Made by a program: the position numbers and the translations under genes. Below the pieces are notes generated by a model. That model saw nothing but the letters and a program-made list of their open reading frames with translations. It was not told the origin of the DNA and did not search any database. Below are positions 18,683 through 24,752 of a DNA stretch of 48,988 nucleotides, in pieces. This DNA comes from Escherichia phage JLBYU09. Positions within the stretch are counted from its first letter, which is position 1, and each line of letters opens with the position of its first letter. Location of the stretch: the sequence record OK272487.1; one strand, given 5' to 3'.

Positions 18683-19099
18683 ATGGTTGATGAATTTTTC
18701 ACTGACGCAGAAATCACGCAGCAAATCGTGAAATTAGCTCCACCGATGAAACAGATTGATCCAGATTTAATGGTGACATGGATTGATCTGGCAAAGGAAT
18801 TTGTTTGCAAGAAGCGGTTTAAAGAATCATATCCAAAAGCGGTTGCTCTTTATACGTTGCACCTTATGACGCTTGATGGAGCCATGAAGCAAGAAGGGGA
18901 AAGCGTAGAAAGTTACTCGCGGCGAGTTGCGTCATTTTCCCTGACTGGTGAATTTAGCCAGACTTTTGATCGAGTGTCAGGCGACTCTGGCGGAAAAGAG
19001 ATTAGACAAACTCCCTGGGGGAAAATGTACGAAACGCTAAATCGTAAGAAAGGCGGTGGATTTGGCCTTGTGACTGGATTTCGGAGGCGCTGCAAATGA
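18683..19099 (+). CDS. head-tail connector / adaptor (putative)
   Basis: 138 aa; position between capsid and tail genes; GGAGGAAA RBS. Confidence 0.4.
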
Positions 19100-19467
19100 A
19101 CTATAACGAGATCGCAAGAATGGCAACCGAAGGAATTAACTTCTTTAGTGATAGCAACGGTGAGTTTAAGTGCATAACGCAGCGTGGAAGCGTTGAAATC
19201 ATTGGAGGCGAAGAAGTAGAAAAGCCAGAGATTAGTGTAATGATTAATGGTTTAATTCGATCCCCAAAAGTCCGAGAGGTTGACGGCGAGACAATACGAG
19301 TAACAGATAAGTTGGGAGTTTTTAACAATAAAGTTGAAATTAAGAACGGGTATCATATTGATGTTGATGGTGAATTATATGTTGTAGTTGAAGCAAGACC
19401 AATCAGGCAAACCAATGTCACTGTTGCTTATCGGCCTATTTTGAGAAGGATTTCTGTACATGGCTAA
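19096..19467 (+). CDS. head closure / neck protein (putative)
   Basis: 123 aa; ATGA coupling; position. Confidence 0.4.
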
Positions 19468-20296: not shown

Positions 20297-20959
20297 ATGC
20301 ATTTACCAAATGGATCGCAAATTTTCGTTGAGAGCAATCGCGGAAGCGAAATCCAAGCAACAGCAGTGTCAAACGCCAAAGATCCTGTTTTCACTGTTGC
20401 ATCTGGCGGCACTGCGTACAAGAAAGGTGATTATGTGATCATCACTGCGTCTTCTTGGGGTAAGCTGATTGATCGTGTTATGCGTGTAAAGGCTAACGGT
20501 GAAGAAACAAGCGTGACTCTTGAAGGTGTAGATACTACTGATCAGAACGTTTTCCCGACTGGCGGTACTGCATCTTTTGCCAAAATTGATGCATGGACTG
20601 AGATCCCTTGCGTTCAAGATTTGTCGCAGGACGGCGGCGAACAGCAATACTACACTTATCAGTGTTTGGCAGACGATCAGGAACAGCAGTTACCTACCTA
20701 TAAGAGCGCCGTTTCTCTTACCTACACTTTTGCGCACGAATACGATAACGCGATCTATCCGCTATTGCGTTCAGCAGATGAATCAGGCGAAGTAACCGCG
20801 CTTCGCATGTATGTACCAAAAGCAAAAGAGATGCGTTGCTGGGCTGGTGTCCTTTCGTTTAACGAAATCCCGAAGACCACAGTTAACGAAATGGAAACCG
20901 TTTCCCTATCTGTATCCCTGAAAGGTCGATTCACCTTCCTACCTTCTCAAGTAGCATAA
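20297..20959 (+). CDS. major tail protein
   Basis: 220 aa; AAGGAG RBS; followed by a strong terminator and the chaperone/tape-measure genes. Confidence 0.6.
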   Translation: MHLPNGSQIFVESNRGSEIQATAVSNAKDPVFTVASGGTAYKKGDYVIITASSWGKLIDRVMRVKANGEETSVTLEGVDTTDQNVFPTGGTASFAKIDAWTEIPCVQDLSQDGGEQQYYTYQCLADDQEQQLPTYKSAVSLTYTFAHEYDNAIYPLLRSADESGEVTALRMYVPKAKEMRCWAGVLSFNEIPKTTVNEMETVSLSVSLKGRFTFLPSQVA

Positions 20960-20965
20960 TCACAA

Positions 20966-20988
20966 GGGGCGTTGCGCCCCTTTTTTTG
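20966..20988 (+). terminator. rho-independent terminator
   Basis: Hairpin GGGGCG-ttgc-GCCCC followed by TTTTTTT. Confidence 0.7.
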
Positions 20989-21058
20989 TTACTGTACAAT
21001 CATGCTACACGATTCATAATCAATTCTTTTAACAAAAAGTGCTATCAAGGAGAAAGAA

Positions 21059-21376
21059 ATGTCAAAAATGAAATTGACGATTGGGCCGCTTCCTGACTTT
21101 AAATTACCAGTGAAATTTGCAATGCCTAACGGAGAAGATCAAACAATTATCTTCACAGTTCGCCACCGCAAAACAAGTGAGATTCACGATCGCTACACGT
21201 CAGATACTCCAATGAGCGATGTTGAAATGATCACCTTCCTTGCTTCCGGTTGGAATCTTGATGATGAATTTAACGAAGAAAATATTAAACAGCTTCTTGA
21301 TTACTACCCAGCAACAGCAATCGGATTAACTAGCGCATACATGAAAGCGCTTGCGGGGCAGCGAGTAAAAAACTAA
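21059..21376 (+). CDS. tail assembly chaperone (lambda G-like)
   Basis: 105 aa; AAGGAGAAAG RBS; ends at a slippery site just before the tape measure gene. Confidence 0.65.
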   Translation: MSKMKLTIGPLPDFKLPVKFAMPNGEDQTIIFTVRHRKTSEIHDRYTSDTPMSDVEMITFLASGWNLDDEFNEENIKQLLDYYPATAIGLTSAYMKALAGQRVKN

Positions 21377-21687
21377 AAAGGGCGGTTTACCTGTTTTATC
21401 AGAAACCGCCGACAGATGCAGAGCTTGAGGCTGTTGGCCTTACAAGGGCAGACTATGAAGGAGAAGATCCGCCAGAGGTTATATTTGATGAAAGCATGAT
21501 GCAATCATGGGATATATTTTGCGCAATGCAAACGCAATGGAGATGTTCTGGCGGTGGCGCTTACGGATTTGATTATAATGTCTTGCCTATGCTTTTTGAG
21601 ATTTACAAGGTTGAGGATCGCGAGATGGCGCTAAACGACTTGCGAATCATGGAGCAAAAAGCACTTGAAATGATGCATTCAAAATAA
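21059..21687 (+). CDS. tail assembly chaperone frameshift product (G-T-like, -1 frameshift near 21367-21373)
   Basis: Slippery heptamer A AAA AAC at 21367-21373 before the G stop; the -1 frame is open from there to 21687 and includes track ORF 21496..21687. Confidence 0.55.
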
Positions 21688-21709
21688 GCGCCTACGGGCG
21701 CTTTTTTAT
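21687..21709 (+). terminator. rho-independent terminator
   Basis: Hairpin AGCGCC-tacg-GGCGCT followed by TTTTTTATT. Confidence 0.6.
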
Positions 21710-21726
21710 TACCTGGAGGATTAATA

Positions 21727-24399
21727 ATGTCAGAACAATACGCAGGCTTGACGCTTGGGGTTGACGTTTCTCAACTCAACAATGCTGTAAAGTCTTTGCA
21801 GCAATTCAAGAAGGCAAACGACGACGCAAAGGGAAGCATTGAGAGTTTTGTTGATTCAGAGGTTGTTGCAAGACAAAGAGCCAAACAACTGGCTGAGGAA
21901 TTGGCAAAGCAGAAGCAAGAATTTAAAGCAATTCAGTCGGCAATAGATCCGACAGCAAGCAAAATGGATAAGTTGCGCCAGGCTGCGACACAGCTTGATG
22001 CGCTTTGGAAAAAAGGAATTGTTCCGGATGATACATTCTTTGAGTTAGGATCAATTCTTGAGACGCAGCAAAACAAACTGATCGCAACTAAAAAGGCGCT
22101 AACTGAAGAAGGCCGCGCGGCGCTTGAGGAAGCAAAAAACAAGGCAAGGGCAGAGGCTGAGGCAAGAAAGTTCATTGCGGCATTGCAGGCGCAAGCTGAC
22201 GCAGCGGAAAAAACAAAATCAGAGCTTGTCGAAATGAGAGCCGCACAACTTGGAGTTAGTGCAGAGGCAGCGCCATTTATTGCAAAAATGAAGGAGCAGG
22301 AAAAACAAGCCTCAAAACTTGGCGTTTCTATGGGGCAGTACAAGCAAGCAATGGCGCAATTGCCAATGCAGATCACTGACGTTGTTACTTCTCTTGCTTC
22401 AGGTATGCCAGTATGGATGATCGCAATCCAGCAGGGGGGGCAAATCAAGGACTCATTCGGCGGTGTTGCTAATACGTTTAAAGCGCTAATGACATTTGTC
22501 ACGCCGCTAAGTGTTGGCATGACGGCGCTGACTGGTGCGCTTGGTTATGCTGCATATAATGCATACAAAGCAAATGCGCAACTAAAGGAGATCACAAAAA
22601 CCGTTCAGGAGGCAACTGGTCTTTCTGGTGATTTTGCGGAGCGTATTGCAACTGGAATCCAGGCGCTATCTGACAAGACAGGAGAGAGCGCAGACAATAT
22701 CGCAAAGGCTTACATAAGCACGAAGGATGGAGCAAGCGAGGCTATACAAAAACTCGTCGATGTTGGTTTTACCTATGATGAAGCAAAGGCTAAGGTAAAC
22801 GAATACAAAAACGCATCAAGTTTTGTAAGTCTTAACAATGAAATTGCTGATCACAAAAACAAAGTTCTTGAGCTTGGTGATTCATGGTATGCGGTCTTAA
22901 AAGCAAAACGTGATTATGCTTCACCGTCCGGCGGGCTGTTGGGGAAAGAGCTTGGTTATGTGAATCCAATGCTGCAATTTGCGAAGAACACCTATGAGGA
23001 TATAGGAAAGATCGTAAAAGATGCGAATAAGGATATGGCGGAACGAGCAGCACGCATCGACAGAGAAAACCTTTCATTAAACAGAGTTCGAGCGGCGCAA
23101 GAGGCTTTAAACAAAGCCATAGAGGATCAGAAGAACGTAGCAAGGACAGCAGACGAAGAGTTGAAAAAGCGCGCGGCTGAGAACGTGGAGTTCAGGCGAA
23201 AAGAGCTTGAAGAGGCGAAGAAGGCGCAGCAGCAAAAGGAGAAAGTTGGTGGAGTTGTAAAAGCACCAACAGAGCAGCTTGATAAGGAGCTATATGTTCT
23301 CAAGGCGCAACTTGAAACGCTGAAAGAGCACCGAACTGTAAATGATGTTATTTCACGCCAGAGGCAATCTTTGTGGAGCATTGAAAAGCAGATCCAGATC
23401 CTTGAGGAAGCGCAAAGTAAACGCAAGCTGACAAAAGCGGAACAGGCGTTACTAAACGAGCAAAAAGCAGTTATTGCTATGGCAAAAGAAAAGGCAGAGA
23501 TAGGCGATCAGATTGTTTTGCAACAGAGAAAGAACAAGCAATACCAGGAAGGGCTTAAATTCATTCAGCAAACATCAGATGCTATTGACGCTATGAACTT
23601 GCGACAGTCTGGAGCTACAGATCTGCAAATCCAGCGAGAGCTTGAGTTGAAGAAGTTGCGAACTGATTATGTTGCTGGCGGCGGTAGTATCGACGATGAA
23701 ATTTATCAGCAGATGGAAGCAAAGCTGAAGGAGTATTACGCCACTGAGGATCAGCTTAGAAATAACTGGATTGCAGGAGCAAAAAACGCATGGGAGGTTT
23801 ACGGACAAGATGCAATGGATATGTACGGCAACGTGCAAGATATTGCAAGCGAGGCGCTCAACGGTCTAACCAACCAAATGGCTACATTCCTTGCAACAGG
23901 AAAGGCAAACTTTAAGAGCTTCGCAACGTCAATCATCCAAATGATTATCCAGATGATCACAAAGATGGTTATCTTTAATGCCATATCCGGTGCGATTGGC
24001 GGTGACACTTGGACGATTGGAAGCCTTCTTAAAAATGTTGGATTTGCAACTGGTGGATACACTGGCGACGGCGGGAAGTATGAGCCAGCAGGTGTTGTTC
24101 ATAAAGGCGAGTTTGTCATGACGAAGGAGGCCACGAAGCGGATCGGAGTTGGAAATCTTTACAAAATGATGCGCGGTTATGCAAATGGCGGCGTTGTTGG
24201 CGGCACTTCATACACTGGCGGCGGAGTTTCATCTGGAGCAACAAATCTTAATATTGGCGGGATCAGCGTTGATATTAACAACGGAAGCGATCCGAAAGGG
24301 TTGGAGACTGGCGTAAAAATGATTTTCACTGATATGATTAAGCGTTCCTGTACGCAGGGTGGGGAAGTTTACGAATTTGTTATGTCTAAGCGGGGGTGA
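21727..24399 (+). CDS. tail tape measure protein
   Basis: 890 aa; Ala/Gln/Lys-rich coiled-coil N-terminal two thirds, Gly-rich C-terminal region; position after the chaperone. Confidence 0.85.
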
Positions 24400-24752
24400 T
24401 AGTGAAACTTGAGCAATTCAAATGGTGCACGCAAACGCAAGGAGGCGGCGGCACTATGACCACATCAAATAACGACAGGGAAATCTCATTTGGTAATGGT
24501 TACACGCAGGTTGCGTCAGGAGGGTTTAACACGGTACGCAGGGAGTTTTCCATTGTCTATGTTGGCAAGGATTACAGAGACGTTGTTGACTTCCTGAATG
24601 GACACAGGCTGAAGCCGTTTTTATGGTTTATGCCTGACGGTCAACCTGGTCTATTCAGGGTAAAATCTGGTAGCGTTGGATTAACTCCAATATCAGCAAC
24701 CGTTCAGGAAGTGAAAGCAACATTTACTGAGCAATTTACATCAATGCAATAA
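24396..24752 (+). CDS. minor tail protein (lambda M-like)
   Basis: 118 aa; FGNGYTQ and FKW motifs resemble recalled lambda gpM (FGDGYSQ, FRWK); GTG start overlapping the tape-measure stop. Confidence 0.5.

What the first reader, a model, noticed from the sequence alone, without database searches (positions are those of the whole stretch)
21367..21687. Programmed -1 frameshift site (A AAA AAC) in the tail assembly chaperone gene gives a G-T-like fusion
The chaperone ORF ends GTA AAA AAC TAA; the heptamer A AAA AAC at 21367-21373 is a canonical slippery sequence, and the -1 frame is open from that point to 21687, covering the 63-aa track ORF 21496-21687. This is the conserved chaperone frameshift arrangement found upstream of the tape measure gene in lambda-like tail modules.
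Basis: partly seen in the sequence, partly recalled or inferred. Interest (0 to 1): 0.55.

Follow-up and report, generated by a model that had tools for sequence, protein, structure and literature searches.

The report
Tail chaperone G/GT programmed −1 frameshift
This T1-like coliphage makes a short and a long tail-assembly chaperone from one gene by letting a few ribosomes slip back one base at A-AAA-AAC just before the stop codon; this is a well-known phage trick, already annotated in sister phages, so it is real but ordinary.

Summary

**What is in the sequence**
- The window is a Drexlerviridae (Hanrivervirus) phage. It is 100% identical to Escherichia phage JLBYU41 over the tail region.
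- The 105-codon chaperone gene (21059-21376, Pfam Phage_TAC_4) ends GTA AAA AAC TAA.
- The in-phase heptamer A_AAA_AAC lies at 21367-21373.
- The −1 frame is open from 21334 to 21687 and adds 104 codons (Pfam DUF1799), giving a 209-aa fusion.

**Comparative support**
- The heptamer plus an adjacent stop is kept in 15 of 16 GenBank relatives and 62 of 69 IMG/VR relatives.
- Prophage relatives at 31-35% identity carry U_UUA_AAC or G_GGA_AAC at the same place.
- The peptide across the junction is the best-conserved block of the fusion.
- The 99 nt after the heptamer evolve with codon periodicity in the −1 frame.
- The annotated ATG at 21496 has no Shine-Dalgarno sequence and is not a conserved start.

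**A possible stimulator**
A hairpin lies 7 nt downstream (21381-21410). It is more stable than synonymous recodings of the same peptide, but it is clade-specific and unproven.

**Verdict**
The kind is already known. Sister phages Sazh and Solomon annotate the joined product, and a genome announcement mentions it for T1-like phages. Hanrivervirus records simply miss it. Interest is low.

The parts
20297..20959 (+). Major tail (tube) protein gene, the upstream neighbour of the chaperone cassette
   Evidence: Pfam Phage_tail_3 E=1.5e-64; phrog_584 major tail protein.
20964..20990 (+). Terminator-like hairpin plus T-run between the tube gene and the chaperone gene
   Evidence: Consensus scan. The equivalent site is annotated as a rho-independent terminator in T1 and Sazh.
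21047..21052 (+). Shine-Dalgarno sequence AAGGAG for the chaperone gene, 6 nt before the ATG
   Evidence: Read. The anti-SD duplex is -8.5 kcal/mol.
21059..21376 (+). G-like tail assembly chaperone ORF (105 aa), the zero-frame product
   Evidence: ORF list; Pfam Phage_TAC_4 PF08748 E=2.9e-31 over residues 1-105.
21367..21373 (+). Slippery heptamer A_AAA_AAC, formed by the last base of GTA plus the last two sense codons of G
   Evidence: Read. It is the only in-phase heptamer in the 43-nt overlap. It is conserved in 15/16 and 62/69 relatives. Distant relatives carry U_UUA_AAC or G_GGA_AAC instead.
21374..21376 (+). Zero-frame stop TAA directly after the heptamer, a possible 'shifty stop' contributor
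   Evidence: A stop at this exact position is present in all intact relatives: TAA, or TGA when the overlapping Leu codon is CTG.
21381..21410 (+). Candidate stimulatory hairpin: an 8-bp stem GGCGGUUU/AAACCGCC plus 3 inner pairs, 7 nt after the heptamer
   Evidence: Present in the MFE and centroid folds; the centroid, which contains only this hairpin, is -15.1 kcal/mol. The native sequence is more stable than 300 synonymous recodings (z=-3.4, 0/300). Covariation is not better than the slid controls. It is absent in some relatives.
21373..21687 (+). T-like extension in the -1 frame: 104 codons plus stop. C21373 is read twice. Product junction is ...QRVKN|LKRAVYLFYQKPPTD...
   Evidence: Pfam DUF1799 PF08809 E=6.8e-13 over residues 22-101, and phrog_17368 over positions 109-211 of a 213-position fused profile. 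Codon-position entropy in the -1 frame is 0.51/0.37/1.32.
21496..21687 (+). The 63-aa ORF called in GenBank/RefSeq records. It is the C-terminal part of the T extension and most likely not an independent gene
   Evidence: There is no SD (-2.7 kcal/mol against -8.5 and -9.3 for neighbouring genes). Homology and conservation extend 41 codons upstream of this ATG. The first in-frame start codon varies among relatives, at codon 8, 18, 23, 42 or 44.
21686..21709 (+). Terminator-like hairpin plus T-run overlapping the T stop, before the tape measure gene
   Evidence: Consensus scan. It is annotated as a terminator in T1, Sazh and Solomon.
21727..24399 (+). Tape measure protein gene (890 aa), the downstream neighbour and presumed client of the chaperones
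   Evidence: Pfam TMP_2 E=2.3e-35 and Tape_meas_lam_C E=6.5e-22.

Best explanation
**What is made.** Gene 21059-21376 encodes a 105-aa tail assembly chaperone, the analogue of lambda gpG. Most ribosomes terminate at TAA 21374-21376. A minority slip back one base on A_AAA_AAC (21367-21373): the Lys-tRNA re-pairs AAA to AAA and the Asn-tRNA re-pairs AAC to AAA. Those ribosomes then read CTA AAA AGG GCG... in the -1 frame to the stop at 21685-21687. The result is a 209-aa G-T fusion with junction ...RVKN-LKRAVYL....

**What may raise the slip rate (inferred).** The adjacent stop codon and a hairpin 7 nt downstream (21381-21410) probably increase slipping on a heptamer that is only moderately shifty in E. 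coli.

**What the products do (by analogy with lambda, not tested here).** G and the G part of GT coat the tape measure protein. The T part recruits the tail tube protein. The fixed low GT:G ratio set by the frameshift is needed for correct tail assembly. Neither protein ends up in the virion.
For: **Shown from the sequence**
- Heptamer phase, adjacent stop and open -1 frame.
- Position between the tube gene and the tape measure gene.
- G matches PF08748 Phage_TAC_4 and T matches PF08809. A PHROG of fused proteins (phrog_17368, 213 positions) is matched by G at positions 1-107 and by the extension at 109-211.

**Comparative**
- A_AAA_AAC plus a stop at the same codons is present in 15/16 GenBank Drexlerviridae from about 10 genera, and in 62/69 IMG/VR loci.
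- The codon before the heptamer varies (GTA, GCA, ACA), but its third base is always A.
- When the overlapping Leu codon changes from CTA to CTG, the stop becomes TGA and is not lost.
- Prophage relatives at 31-35% identity carry A_AAA_AAC, U_UUA_AAC or G_GGA_AAC followed by TGA at the same position.
- The junction block G-x-R-x-K-N-L-K-R-A-V-x-L is (nearly) invariant and is the most conserved part of the fusion.
- Conservation in the -1 frame begins exactly at the heptamer.
- The 99 nt after the heptamer show third-position variation in the -1 frame only.
- There is no SD and no conserved start for an independent T.

**Hairpin**
- Window z=-3.4 against synonymous recodings.
- Unrelated hairpins occur at the same spacing in L090 and L091 (z about -2.9).

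**Precedent**
- Joined CDS annotated in Sazh and Solomon.
- A G/GT-like frameshift is stated for the T1-like phage Skenny (PMC6763657).
- AAAAAAC adjacent to the chaperone stop is described in phage Loki (PMC5313236).
- A_AAA_AAC is a proven -1 site in E. coli IS1 (PMC4066793).
- Lambda G/GT biology (PMC5009743).
Against: - No protein-level evidence exists here for this phage or, as far as I found, for any T1-like phage.
- A_AAA_AAC is much less shift-prone in E. coli than A_AAA_AAG (PMC5009743), so the efficiency is unknown.
- The hairpin is absent in several relatives that keep the heptamer: L022/L023 at 91% protein identity, and the Braunvirinae and Rogunavirinae types.
- The hairpin shows no covariation beyond the slid controls. 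Its arms also encode the conserved residues RAV and KPP.
- G and T are not detectably homologous to lambda G and T, so their functional roles are inferred from position and family names only.
- Structure prediction of G alone failed (pLDDT 43).
Confidence: 0.9

Rival explanations
1. Transcriptional slippage. RNA polymerase occasionally adds one extra A on the A6 run (21367-21372). A subset of mRNAs would then encode an in-frame G-T fusion with junction ...VKK-LKR..., without any ribosomal slipping.
For: A run of six A is present and conserved. One inserted A would give the correct downstream frame (my reading). Slippage on A/T runs is used by some bacterial and IS genes (PMC5009743).
Against: - Six A is short for efficient polymerase slippage (established knowledge; productive cases use longer runs).
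- Relatives with GCA AAG GTC TAA, U_UUA_AAC or G_GGA_AAC have runs of only 3-4 identical bases, yet keep the same two-frame architecture. This fits tRNA re-pairing rules, not homopolymer length.
- The same A6C motif in IS1 is listed as a proven frameshifting case (PMC4066793).
- A hairpin at the spacing typical of ribosomal stimulators is present.
Confidence: 0.05
2. Two separate genes, as deposited in the Hanrivervirus GenBank/RefSeq records. Under this reading, the 105-aa chaperone and a 63-aa protein initiated at ATG 21496 are translated independently, and the heptamer is incidental.
For: An ATG-initiated 63-aa ORF exists. It is annotated as a CDS in JLBYU41, Henu8, JakobBernoulli and others. 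AAAAAAC alone is no more frequent than chance in the window.
Against: - There is no Shine-Dalgarno sequence before 21496 (-2.7 kcal/mol).
- Pfam and PHROG homology begins 20-33 codons upstream of that ATG.
- The 41 codons between the G stop and the ATG are under purifying selection in the -1 frame, and they include the most conserved block of the whole protein.
- The first in-frame start differs among relatives.
- Heptamer and stop are conserved with synonymous-site constraint.
Confidence: 0.03
3. Assembly or sequencing artefact. Under this reading, G and T are really one continuous ORF, and the A6 run is a miscalled homopolymer.
For: Two database relatives (L021, L049) differ in the length of this A run: A5 instead of A6.
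Against: - More than 75 independently sequenced relatives have exactly A6 followed by C and a stop.
- The two A5 records also carry other single-base indels in the same 630 nt and are still not in-frame fusions.
- Distant relatives without a long homopolymer keep the two-frame layout.
Confidence: 0.01

Closest known systems
Phage lambda G/GT tail assembly chaperones (-1 frameshift at G_GGA_AAG)
   Same: Both have two overlapping frames between the major tail protein gene and the tape measure gene. Both have an in-phase slippery heptamer near the end of the first ORF. In both, the -1 extension lacks its own start and is about as long as the first ORF. The presumed role is the same: G coats the tape measure protein and T recruits tube subunits (lambda facts from PMC5009743; lambda layout).
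   Different: - The heptamer here is A_AAA_AAC, not G_GGA_AAG.
- Here the heptamer is the last two sense codons, directly followed by the stop. In lambda five further codons precede the stop.
- The proteins belong to other Pfam families: PF08748/PF08809 here against PF06894/PF06223 in lambda. BLASTP between them is not significant.
- A candidate downstream hairpin exists here.
Annotated 'tape measure chaperone frameshift product' of other T1-like phages (Citrobacter phage Sazh, Klebsiella phage Solomon; text statement for Klebsiella phage Skenny)
   Same: These are orthologous genes of the same virus family. They have the same A_AAA_AAC TAA site at the same codons and the same LKRAVYL junction.
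   Different: Only the annotation differs. Hanrivervirus, T1 and most other records list two separate CDS. Solomon lacks the window's hairpin sequence but has another predicted structure (z=-2.0).
IS1 insA/insB' -1 frameshift at A_AAA_AAC in E. coli
   Same: The heptamer is identical, the host translation apparatus is the same, and a low-level -1 shift fuses an upstream ORF to an overlapping -1 ORF (PMC4066793).
   Different: The genes and function are unrelated (a transposase). IS1 has no established stimulator. Here an adjacent stop and a candidate hairpin are present.
Acinetobacter phage Loki gp12/gp13 (AAAAAAC adjacent to the chaperone stop codon)
   Same: The motif is the same, and it is placed immediately before the stop of a tail assembly chaperone gene (PMC5313236).
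   Different: It is a different phage group and host. Homology to the window's proteins was not tested. The Loki frameshift is also only predicted.

Membership tests
Conserved tail-assembly-chaperone frameshift arrangement of long-tailed phages (lambda G/GT type) | Two overlapping ORFs lie between the major tail protein gene and the tape measure gene, on the same strand | tested here: met
   Tube gene 20297-20959, G 21059-21376, -1 frame 21334-21687, tape measure gene 21727-24399.
Conserved tail-assembly-chaperone frameshift arrangement of long-tailed phages (lambda G/GT type) | [quoted passage not shown] | tested here: met
   A_AAA_AAC at 21367-21373 is the only X_XXY_YYZ in the 43-nt overlap. 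It is conserved, or replaced by other slippery motifs, in relatives.
Conserved tail-assembly-chaperone frameshift arrangement of long-tailed phages (lambda G/GT type) | The second frame has no initiation signal of its own and is conserved as protein from the shift site onward | tested here: met
   There is no start codon in the -1 frame between 21334 and 21496 and no SD. Conservation begins at the junction.
Conserved tail-assembly-chaperone frameshift arrangement of long-tailed phages (lambda G/GT type) | A fusion protein is actually produced, at a low fixed ratio to the short product | not testable with these tools
   This needs a western blot or mass spectrometry of infected cells, or a reporter assay.
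Conserved tail-assembly-chaperone frameshift arrangement of long-tailed phages (lambda G/GT type) | The G part binds the tape measure protein and the T part binds the tube protein; both are absent from virions | not testable with these tools
   Inferred from lambda only (PMC5009743).
Lambda gpG / gpT protein families (Pfam PF06894 Phage_TAC_2, PF06223 Phage_tail_T) | Sequence match to the family profiles or to lambda G/T | tested here: not met
   The window's G hits PF08748 and its T hits PF08809, not the lambda families. Lambda G and T hit PF06894 and PF06223. BLASTP gives E=2.0 and 0.52.
Pfam Phage_TAC_4 (PF08748) / DUF1799 (PF08809) chaperone pair of T1-like phages | A match above the curated Pfam threshold for both parts | tested here: met
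   108.7 bits against a cut-off of 21.1, and 49.1 bits against a cut-off of 26. The fused PHROG profile phrog_17368 is matched by both parts.
Tail assembly chaperone fold ('spiral' TAC fold) | A predicted or solved structure resembles known chaperone structures | tested here: inconclusive
   The single-sequence AlphaFold2 model of G had mean pLDDT 43, so no fold search was run. There was no PDB sequence relative.
Stimulated -1 frameshift signals (heptamer + spacer + downstream RNA structure, as in dnaX or IS3-family elements) | A stable downstream structure at 5-9 nt spacing, supported by conservation or covariation | tested here: inconclusive
   The hairpin 21381-21410 has a 7-nt spacer and a fold of -15.1 kcal/mol. 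It is more stable than synonymous recodings (z=-3.4), and analogous hairpins occur in L090 and L091. However, covariation is not above the slid controls, the hairpin is missing in several relatives, and there is no Rfam match.

The most novel reading that the evidence does not exclude
The frameshift signal may be composite and evolutionarily plastic. Under this reading, a heptamer that is only moderately shifty in E. coli (A_AAA_AAC) is boosted by two things: the stop codon that always follows it, and a hairpin 7 nt downstream that is maintained by synonymous codon choice in the Tempevirinae and Tunavirinae. Three observations fit this:
- Hairpins of unrelated sequence recur at the same spacing in distant prophage relatives.
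- Other lineages have dropped the hairpin.
- Some lineages have swapped the heptamer for a bare A_AAG tetramer while keeping the same junction.

If true, the family would be a natural series for studying how GT:G ratios are tuned.
Probability: 0.35. Interest if true: 0.3.

Novelty: already known. Interest (0 to 1): 0.15.

Why it matters
**Practical value.** This is mainly an annotation matter.
- GenBank and RefSeq records of Hanrivervirus phages (JLBYU41, Henu8, JakobBernoulli and others), and of T1 itself, list a 105-aa protein and a spurious 56-63-aa protein. The joined roughly 209-aa frameshift product is missing.
- RefSeq labels both ORFs 'tail length tape measure protein', which is misleading.
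- Correct models matter for phage engineering. They also matter for studies in which bacterial immune sensors recognise tail assembly chaperones (PMC13581612).

**Biological value.** The finding adds no new principle. The only mildly interesting point is the family-wide view of how the slip site and its possible stimulators vary.

Tried and rejected
1. **Rfam scan of 20900-21800.** Only sub-threshold chance hits appeared, and no known frameshift element.
2. **PDB sequence search with the fusion.** Nothing relevant was found.
3. **Structure prediction.**
   - G alone, folded without an alignment, gave pLDDT 43, so I ran no fold search.
4. **The search for homologous proteins with the fusion.** It returned only three T-frame ORFs, too few for a useful alignment. 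They do show that conservation starts at the heptamer.
5. **Covariation test of the hairpin on 60 unique relatives.** 79% of cells are paired, but the covariation score is not above the slid controls. I do not claim the hairpin as proven.
6. **An upstream Shine-Dalgarno-like stimulator, as in dnaX.** GGGG at 21354-21357 lies in a Gly codon that varies freely among relatives (GGG, GGT, GGC, GGA). I rejected it.
7. **Termination-reinitiation.** There is no ATG, GTG or TTG in the -1 frame between 21334 and 21496. Reinitiation would also skip the conserved LKRAV block. I rejected it.
8. **Homology to lambda G/T.** Tested and not found.
9. **Literature.** I could not read Xu, Hendrix and Duda 2004 or the T1 genome paper in the held library. 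I therefore cannot say whether T1 was listed there. One paper search failed on a too-short term.

Full report
**Observation**

Reading the window shows the zero frame ...CAG CGA GTA AAA AAC TAA. TAA lies at 21374-21376, so A_AAA_AAC occupies 21367-21373 in the canonical X_XXY_YYZ phase.

The ORF list gives the 105-aa ORF 21059-21376 and the 63-aa ORF 21496-21687, which is in the -1 frame. A script shows three things:
- The -1 frame is open from 21334 to the stop ending at 21687.
- The overlap with the first ORF is 43 nt.
- A_AAA_AAC is the only in-phase slippery heptamer in that overlap.

Slipping there adds 104 codons and gives a 209-aa protein. The coordinates and description in the finding are therefore correct.

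The heptamer alone is not remarkable. AAAAAAC occurs 20 times in the window against 21.3 expected. Only the copy at 21367 combines a long upstream zero-frame ORF, an immediate stop and a 104-codon -1 extension.

**Identity of the locus**

- The tail region 20297-24399 is 100% identical to Escherichia phage JLBYU41. It is 97-98% identical to Henu8, pSf-1 and other Hanrivervirus phages (Drexlerviridae, the T1-like phages).
- The upstream gene is the tail tube protein (Pfam Phage_tail_3).
- The downstream gene is the tape measure protein (TMP_2 and Tape_meas_lam_C).
- The 105-aa protein matches Pfam Phage_TAC_4 end to end (E=3e-31).
- The -1 extension matches DUF1799 from its residue 22, and phrog_680 from residue 9. 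Both are far upstream of the annotated Met at residue 42.
- A PHROG built from fused proteins (phrog_17368, 213 positions) is matched by G at positions 1-107 and by the extension at 109-211.

**Comparative evidence for the frameshift**

I collected 16 GenBank loci from about ten Drexlerviridae genera, 69 IMG/VR loci and five genome or MAG loci. The IMG/VR loci were found through a peptide pattern in the N-terminal part of G, so they were not selected for the heptamer.

*The heptamer and the stop*
- A_AAA_AAC followed directly by a stop is present in 15 of 16 GenBank loci.
- It is present in 62 of 69 IMG/VR loci: 59 with TAA, 2 with TGA, plus L069.
- The codon before the heptamer encodes Val, Ala or Thr (GTA, GCA, ACA), but its third base is always A.
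- Neighbouring third positions vary freely: CGA/CGC/CGG/CGT, GGG/GGT/GGC/GGA.
- Where the overlapping Leu codon is CTG instead of CTA, the zero-frame stop becomes TGA rather than disappearing.

*Distant relatives and exceptions*
- Prophage-like relatives at only 31-35% identity keep the layout with A_AAA_AAC, U_UUA_AAC or G_GGA_AAC followed by TGA at the same codons. These come from a Gammaproteobacteria MAG, Pseudomonas luteola and Pseudoxanthomonas. The slippery property is conserved while the bases change.
- Five IMG/VR loci, plus Opt-719 and L088, have GCA AAG GTC (or CCC) TAA instead. That sequence contains the A_AAG tetramer, the most shift-prone tetramer in E. coli (PMC4066793). These loci retain the same LKRAV continuation.
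- Two records (L021, L049) have A5. They also carry other single-base indels in the same 630 nt, so they look like homopolymer sequencing errors.

**Evidence that the region after the stop is translated in the -1 frame from the junction**

- In an alignment of 12 fused sequences, the block G-x-R-x-K-N-L-K-R-A-V-x-L across the junction is (nearly) invariant. It is the most conserved stretch of the protein.
- Across 64 unique sequences, the 99 nt after the heptamer have mean column entropy 0.51, 0.37 and 1.32 at -1-frame codon positions 1, 2 and 3. This is the signature of purifying selection on that frame.
- Database gene callers that extended the T frame upstream produced N-terminal tails that are unrelated to each other. 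The sequences become alike exactly at KK-LKRAVYL, that is, at the heptamer.
- The ATG at 21496 has no Shine-Dalgarno sequence. Its best anti-SD duplex is -2.7 kcal/mol, against -8.5 for G and -9.3 for the tape measure gene.
- The first in-frame start codon in the extension differs among relatives: codon 8, 18, 23, 42 or 44.

Independent translation of a 63-aa protein, as the Hanrivervirus and T1 records annotate it, is therefore very unlikely to be the main route.

**Mechanism**

The best-supported mechanism is tandem -1 re-pairing of the Lys and Asn tRNAs on A_AAA_AAC. This gives the junction ...RVKN-LKRAV....

A_AAA_AAC is a proven -1 site in E. coli in IS1 (PMC4066793). It is much less shifty there than A_AAA_AAG (PMC5009743). 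Two features could compensate.

*The adjacent stop.* A stop codon follows the heptamer in every intact relative.

*A downstream hairpin.* It spans 21381-21410: an 8-bp stem GGCGGUUU/AAACCGCC plus three inner pairs, 7 nt after the heptamer. The centroid fold, which contains only this hairpin, is -15.1 kcal/mol.
- For: the native sequence folds more stably than any of 300 synonymous recodings of the same T peptide (z=-3.4). The same holds across the Tempevirinae and Tunavirinae (z from -3 to -5). Hairpins of different sequence sit at the same spacing in L090 and L091 (z about -2.9).
- Against: the arms encode the conserved residues RAV and KPP. The related sequences are not independent observations. 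Covariation is no better than the slid controls. Close relatives L022 and L023, and the Braunvirinae and Rogunavirinae types, lack the hairpin yet keep the slip site. No Rfam family matches.

I therefore treat the hairpin as a plausible, clade-specific, unproven stimulator.

Transcriptional slippage on A6 would give the same frame, with junction VKK-LKR. It fits poorly with relatives whose runs are only 3-4 bases long.

**Comparison with the known**

The arrangement is the classic lambda G/GT one. In lambda, a low fixed GT:G ratio of about 1:30 is needed for tail assembly, G binds the tape measure protein, T binds the tube protein, and neither is in the virion (PMC5009743).

Membership in the arrangement is met on every sequence-level criterion. 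Membership in lambda's own protein families is not met:
- Lambda G is PF06894 and lambda T is PF06223.
- BLASTP between the lambda proteins and the window's proteins is not significant.

The site is already recognised within the T1-like family:
- The Sazh and Solomon records carry a joined 'tape measure chaperone frameshift product'.
- The Skenny genome announcement states that T1-like chaperones have a lambda G/GT-like frameshift (PMC6763657).
- AAAAAAC adjacent to the chaperone stop has been described in Acinetobacter phage Loki (PMC5313236).

**Verdict**

Novelty is 'already known'. What is missing is only the annotation in Hanrivervirus and T1 records, and any protein-level proof. Interest is low (0.15). 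The one lead worth a small experiment is whether the adjacent stop and the codon-choice-maintained hairpin tune the shift efficiency.

Noticed in passing
L014:801-880 (Opt-719), L074, L077-L080; L088:968-1016: A subset of relatives (Rogunavirinae type) lacks the heptamer. They end G with GCA AAG GTC TAA, or GCA AAG CCC TAA in L088, yet keep the same LKRAV continuation in the -1 frame. They presumably shift on the A_AAG tetramer one codon earlier, giving junction K-G-L or K-A-L instead of K-N-L.
   Followed up: partly
L089:1001-1009, L090:1010-1018, L091:998-1006: [quoted passage not shown] These come from a Gammaproteobacteria MAG, Pseudomonas luteola and Pseudoxanthomonas. L090 and L091 have strong downstream hairpins of unrelated sequence (z about -2.9 against synonymous recodings).
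   Followed up: partly
window 20964-20990, 20993-21020 and 21686-21709: Terminator-like hairpins with T-runs flank the chaperone cassette, after the tube gene and overlapping the T stop. A promoter-like site (TGTACA-16-CATAAT) follows the first one. The terminators are annotated at the same places in T1, Sazh and Solomon. They may set expression levels of tube protein, chaperones and tape measure protein.
   Followed up: no
L021:1005-1020 and L049:1000-1015: Two IMG/VR genomes have A5 instead of A6 at the slip site. They also have several other single-base indels within the same 630 nt, which most likely reflects homopolymer sequencing errors.
   Followed up: partly
window 21059-21376 and 21496-21687 (RefSeq NC_049853 gp36/gp37; NC_005833 ST40/ST39): RefSeq names both chaperone ORFs 'tail length tape measure protein', a label apparently inherited from the PHROG category. 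It is misleading: the real tape measure gene is the next one, at 21727-24399.
   Followed up: no
window 19096-19467: The 123-aa ORF in the head-tail connector block is labelled 'putative ribonucleoside-triphosphate reductase' in JLBYU41 (JLBYU41_45). This looks like a misannotation, given its size and position among neck and tail genes.
   Followed up: no
window 24396-24752: The start of the gene after the tape measure gene (gpM-like minor tail protein) is placed differently in different records. The earliest start in the ORF list is GTG 24396. JLBYU41 uses the equivalent of 24402. Henu8 and JakobBernoulli use ATG 24456.
   Followed up: no
P0001-P0003 (alignment A3): The large protein database returned only three relatives for the fused query, all of them T-frame ORFs with upstream extensions. 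Their N-terminal tails are unrelated to each other until the residues encoded by the heptamer (KK-LKRAVYL).
   Followed up: yes
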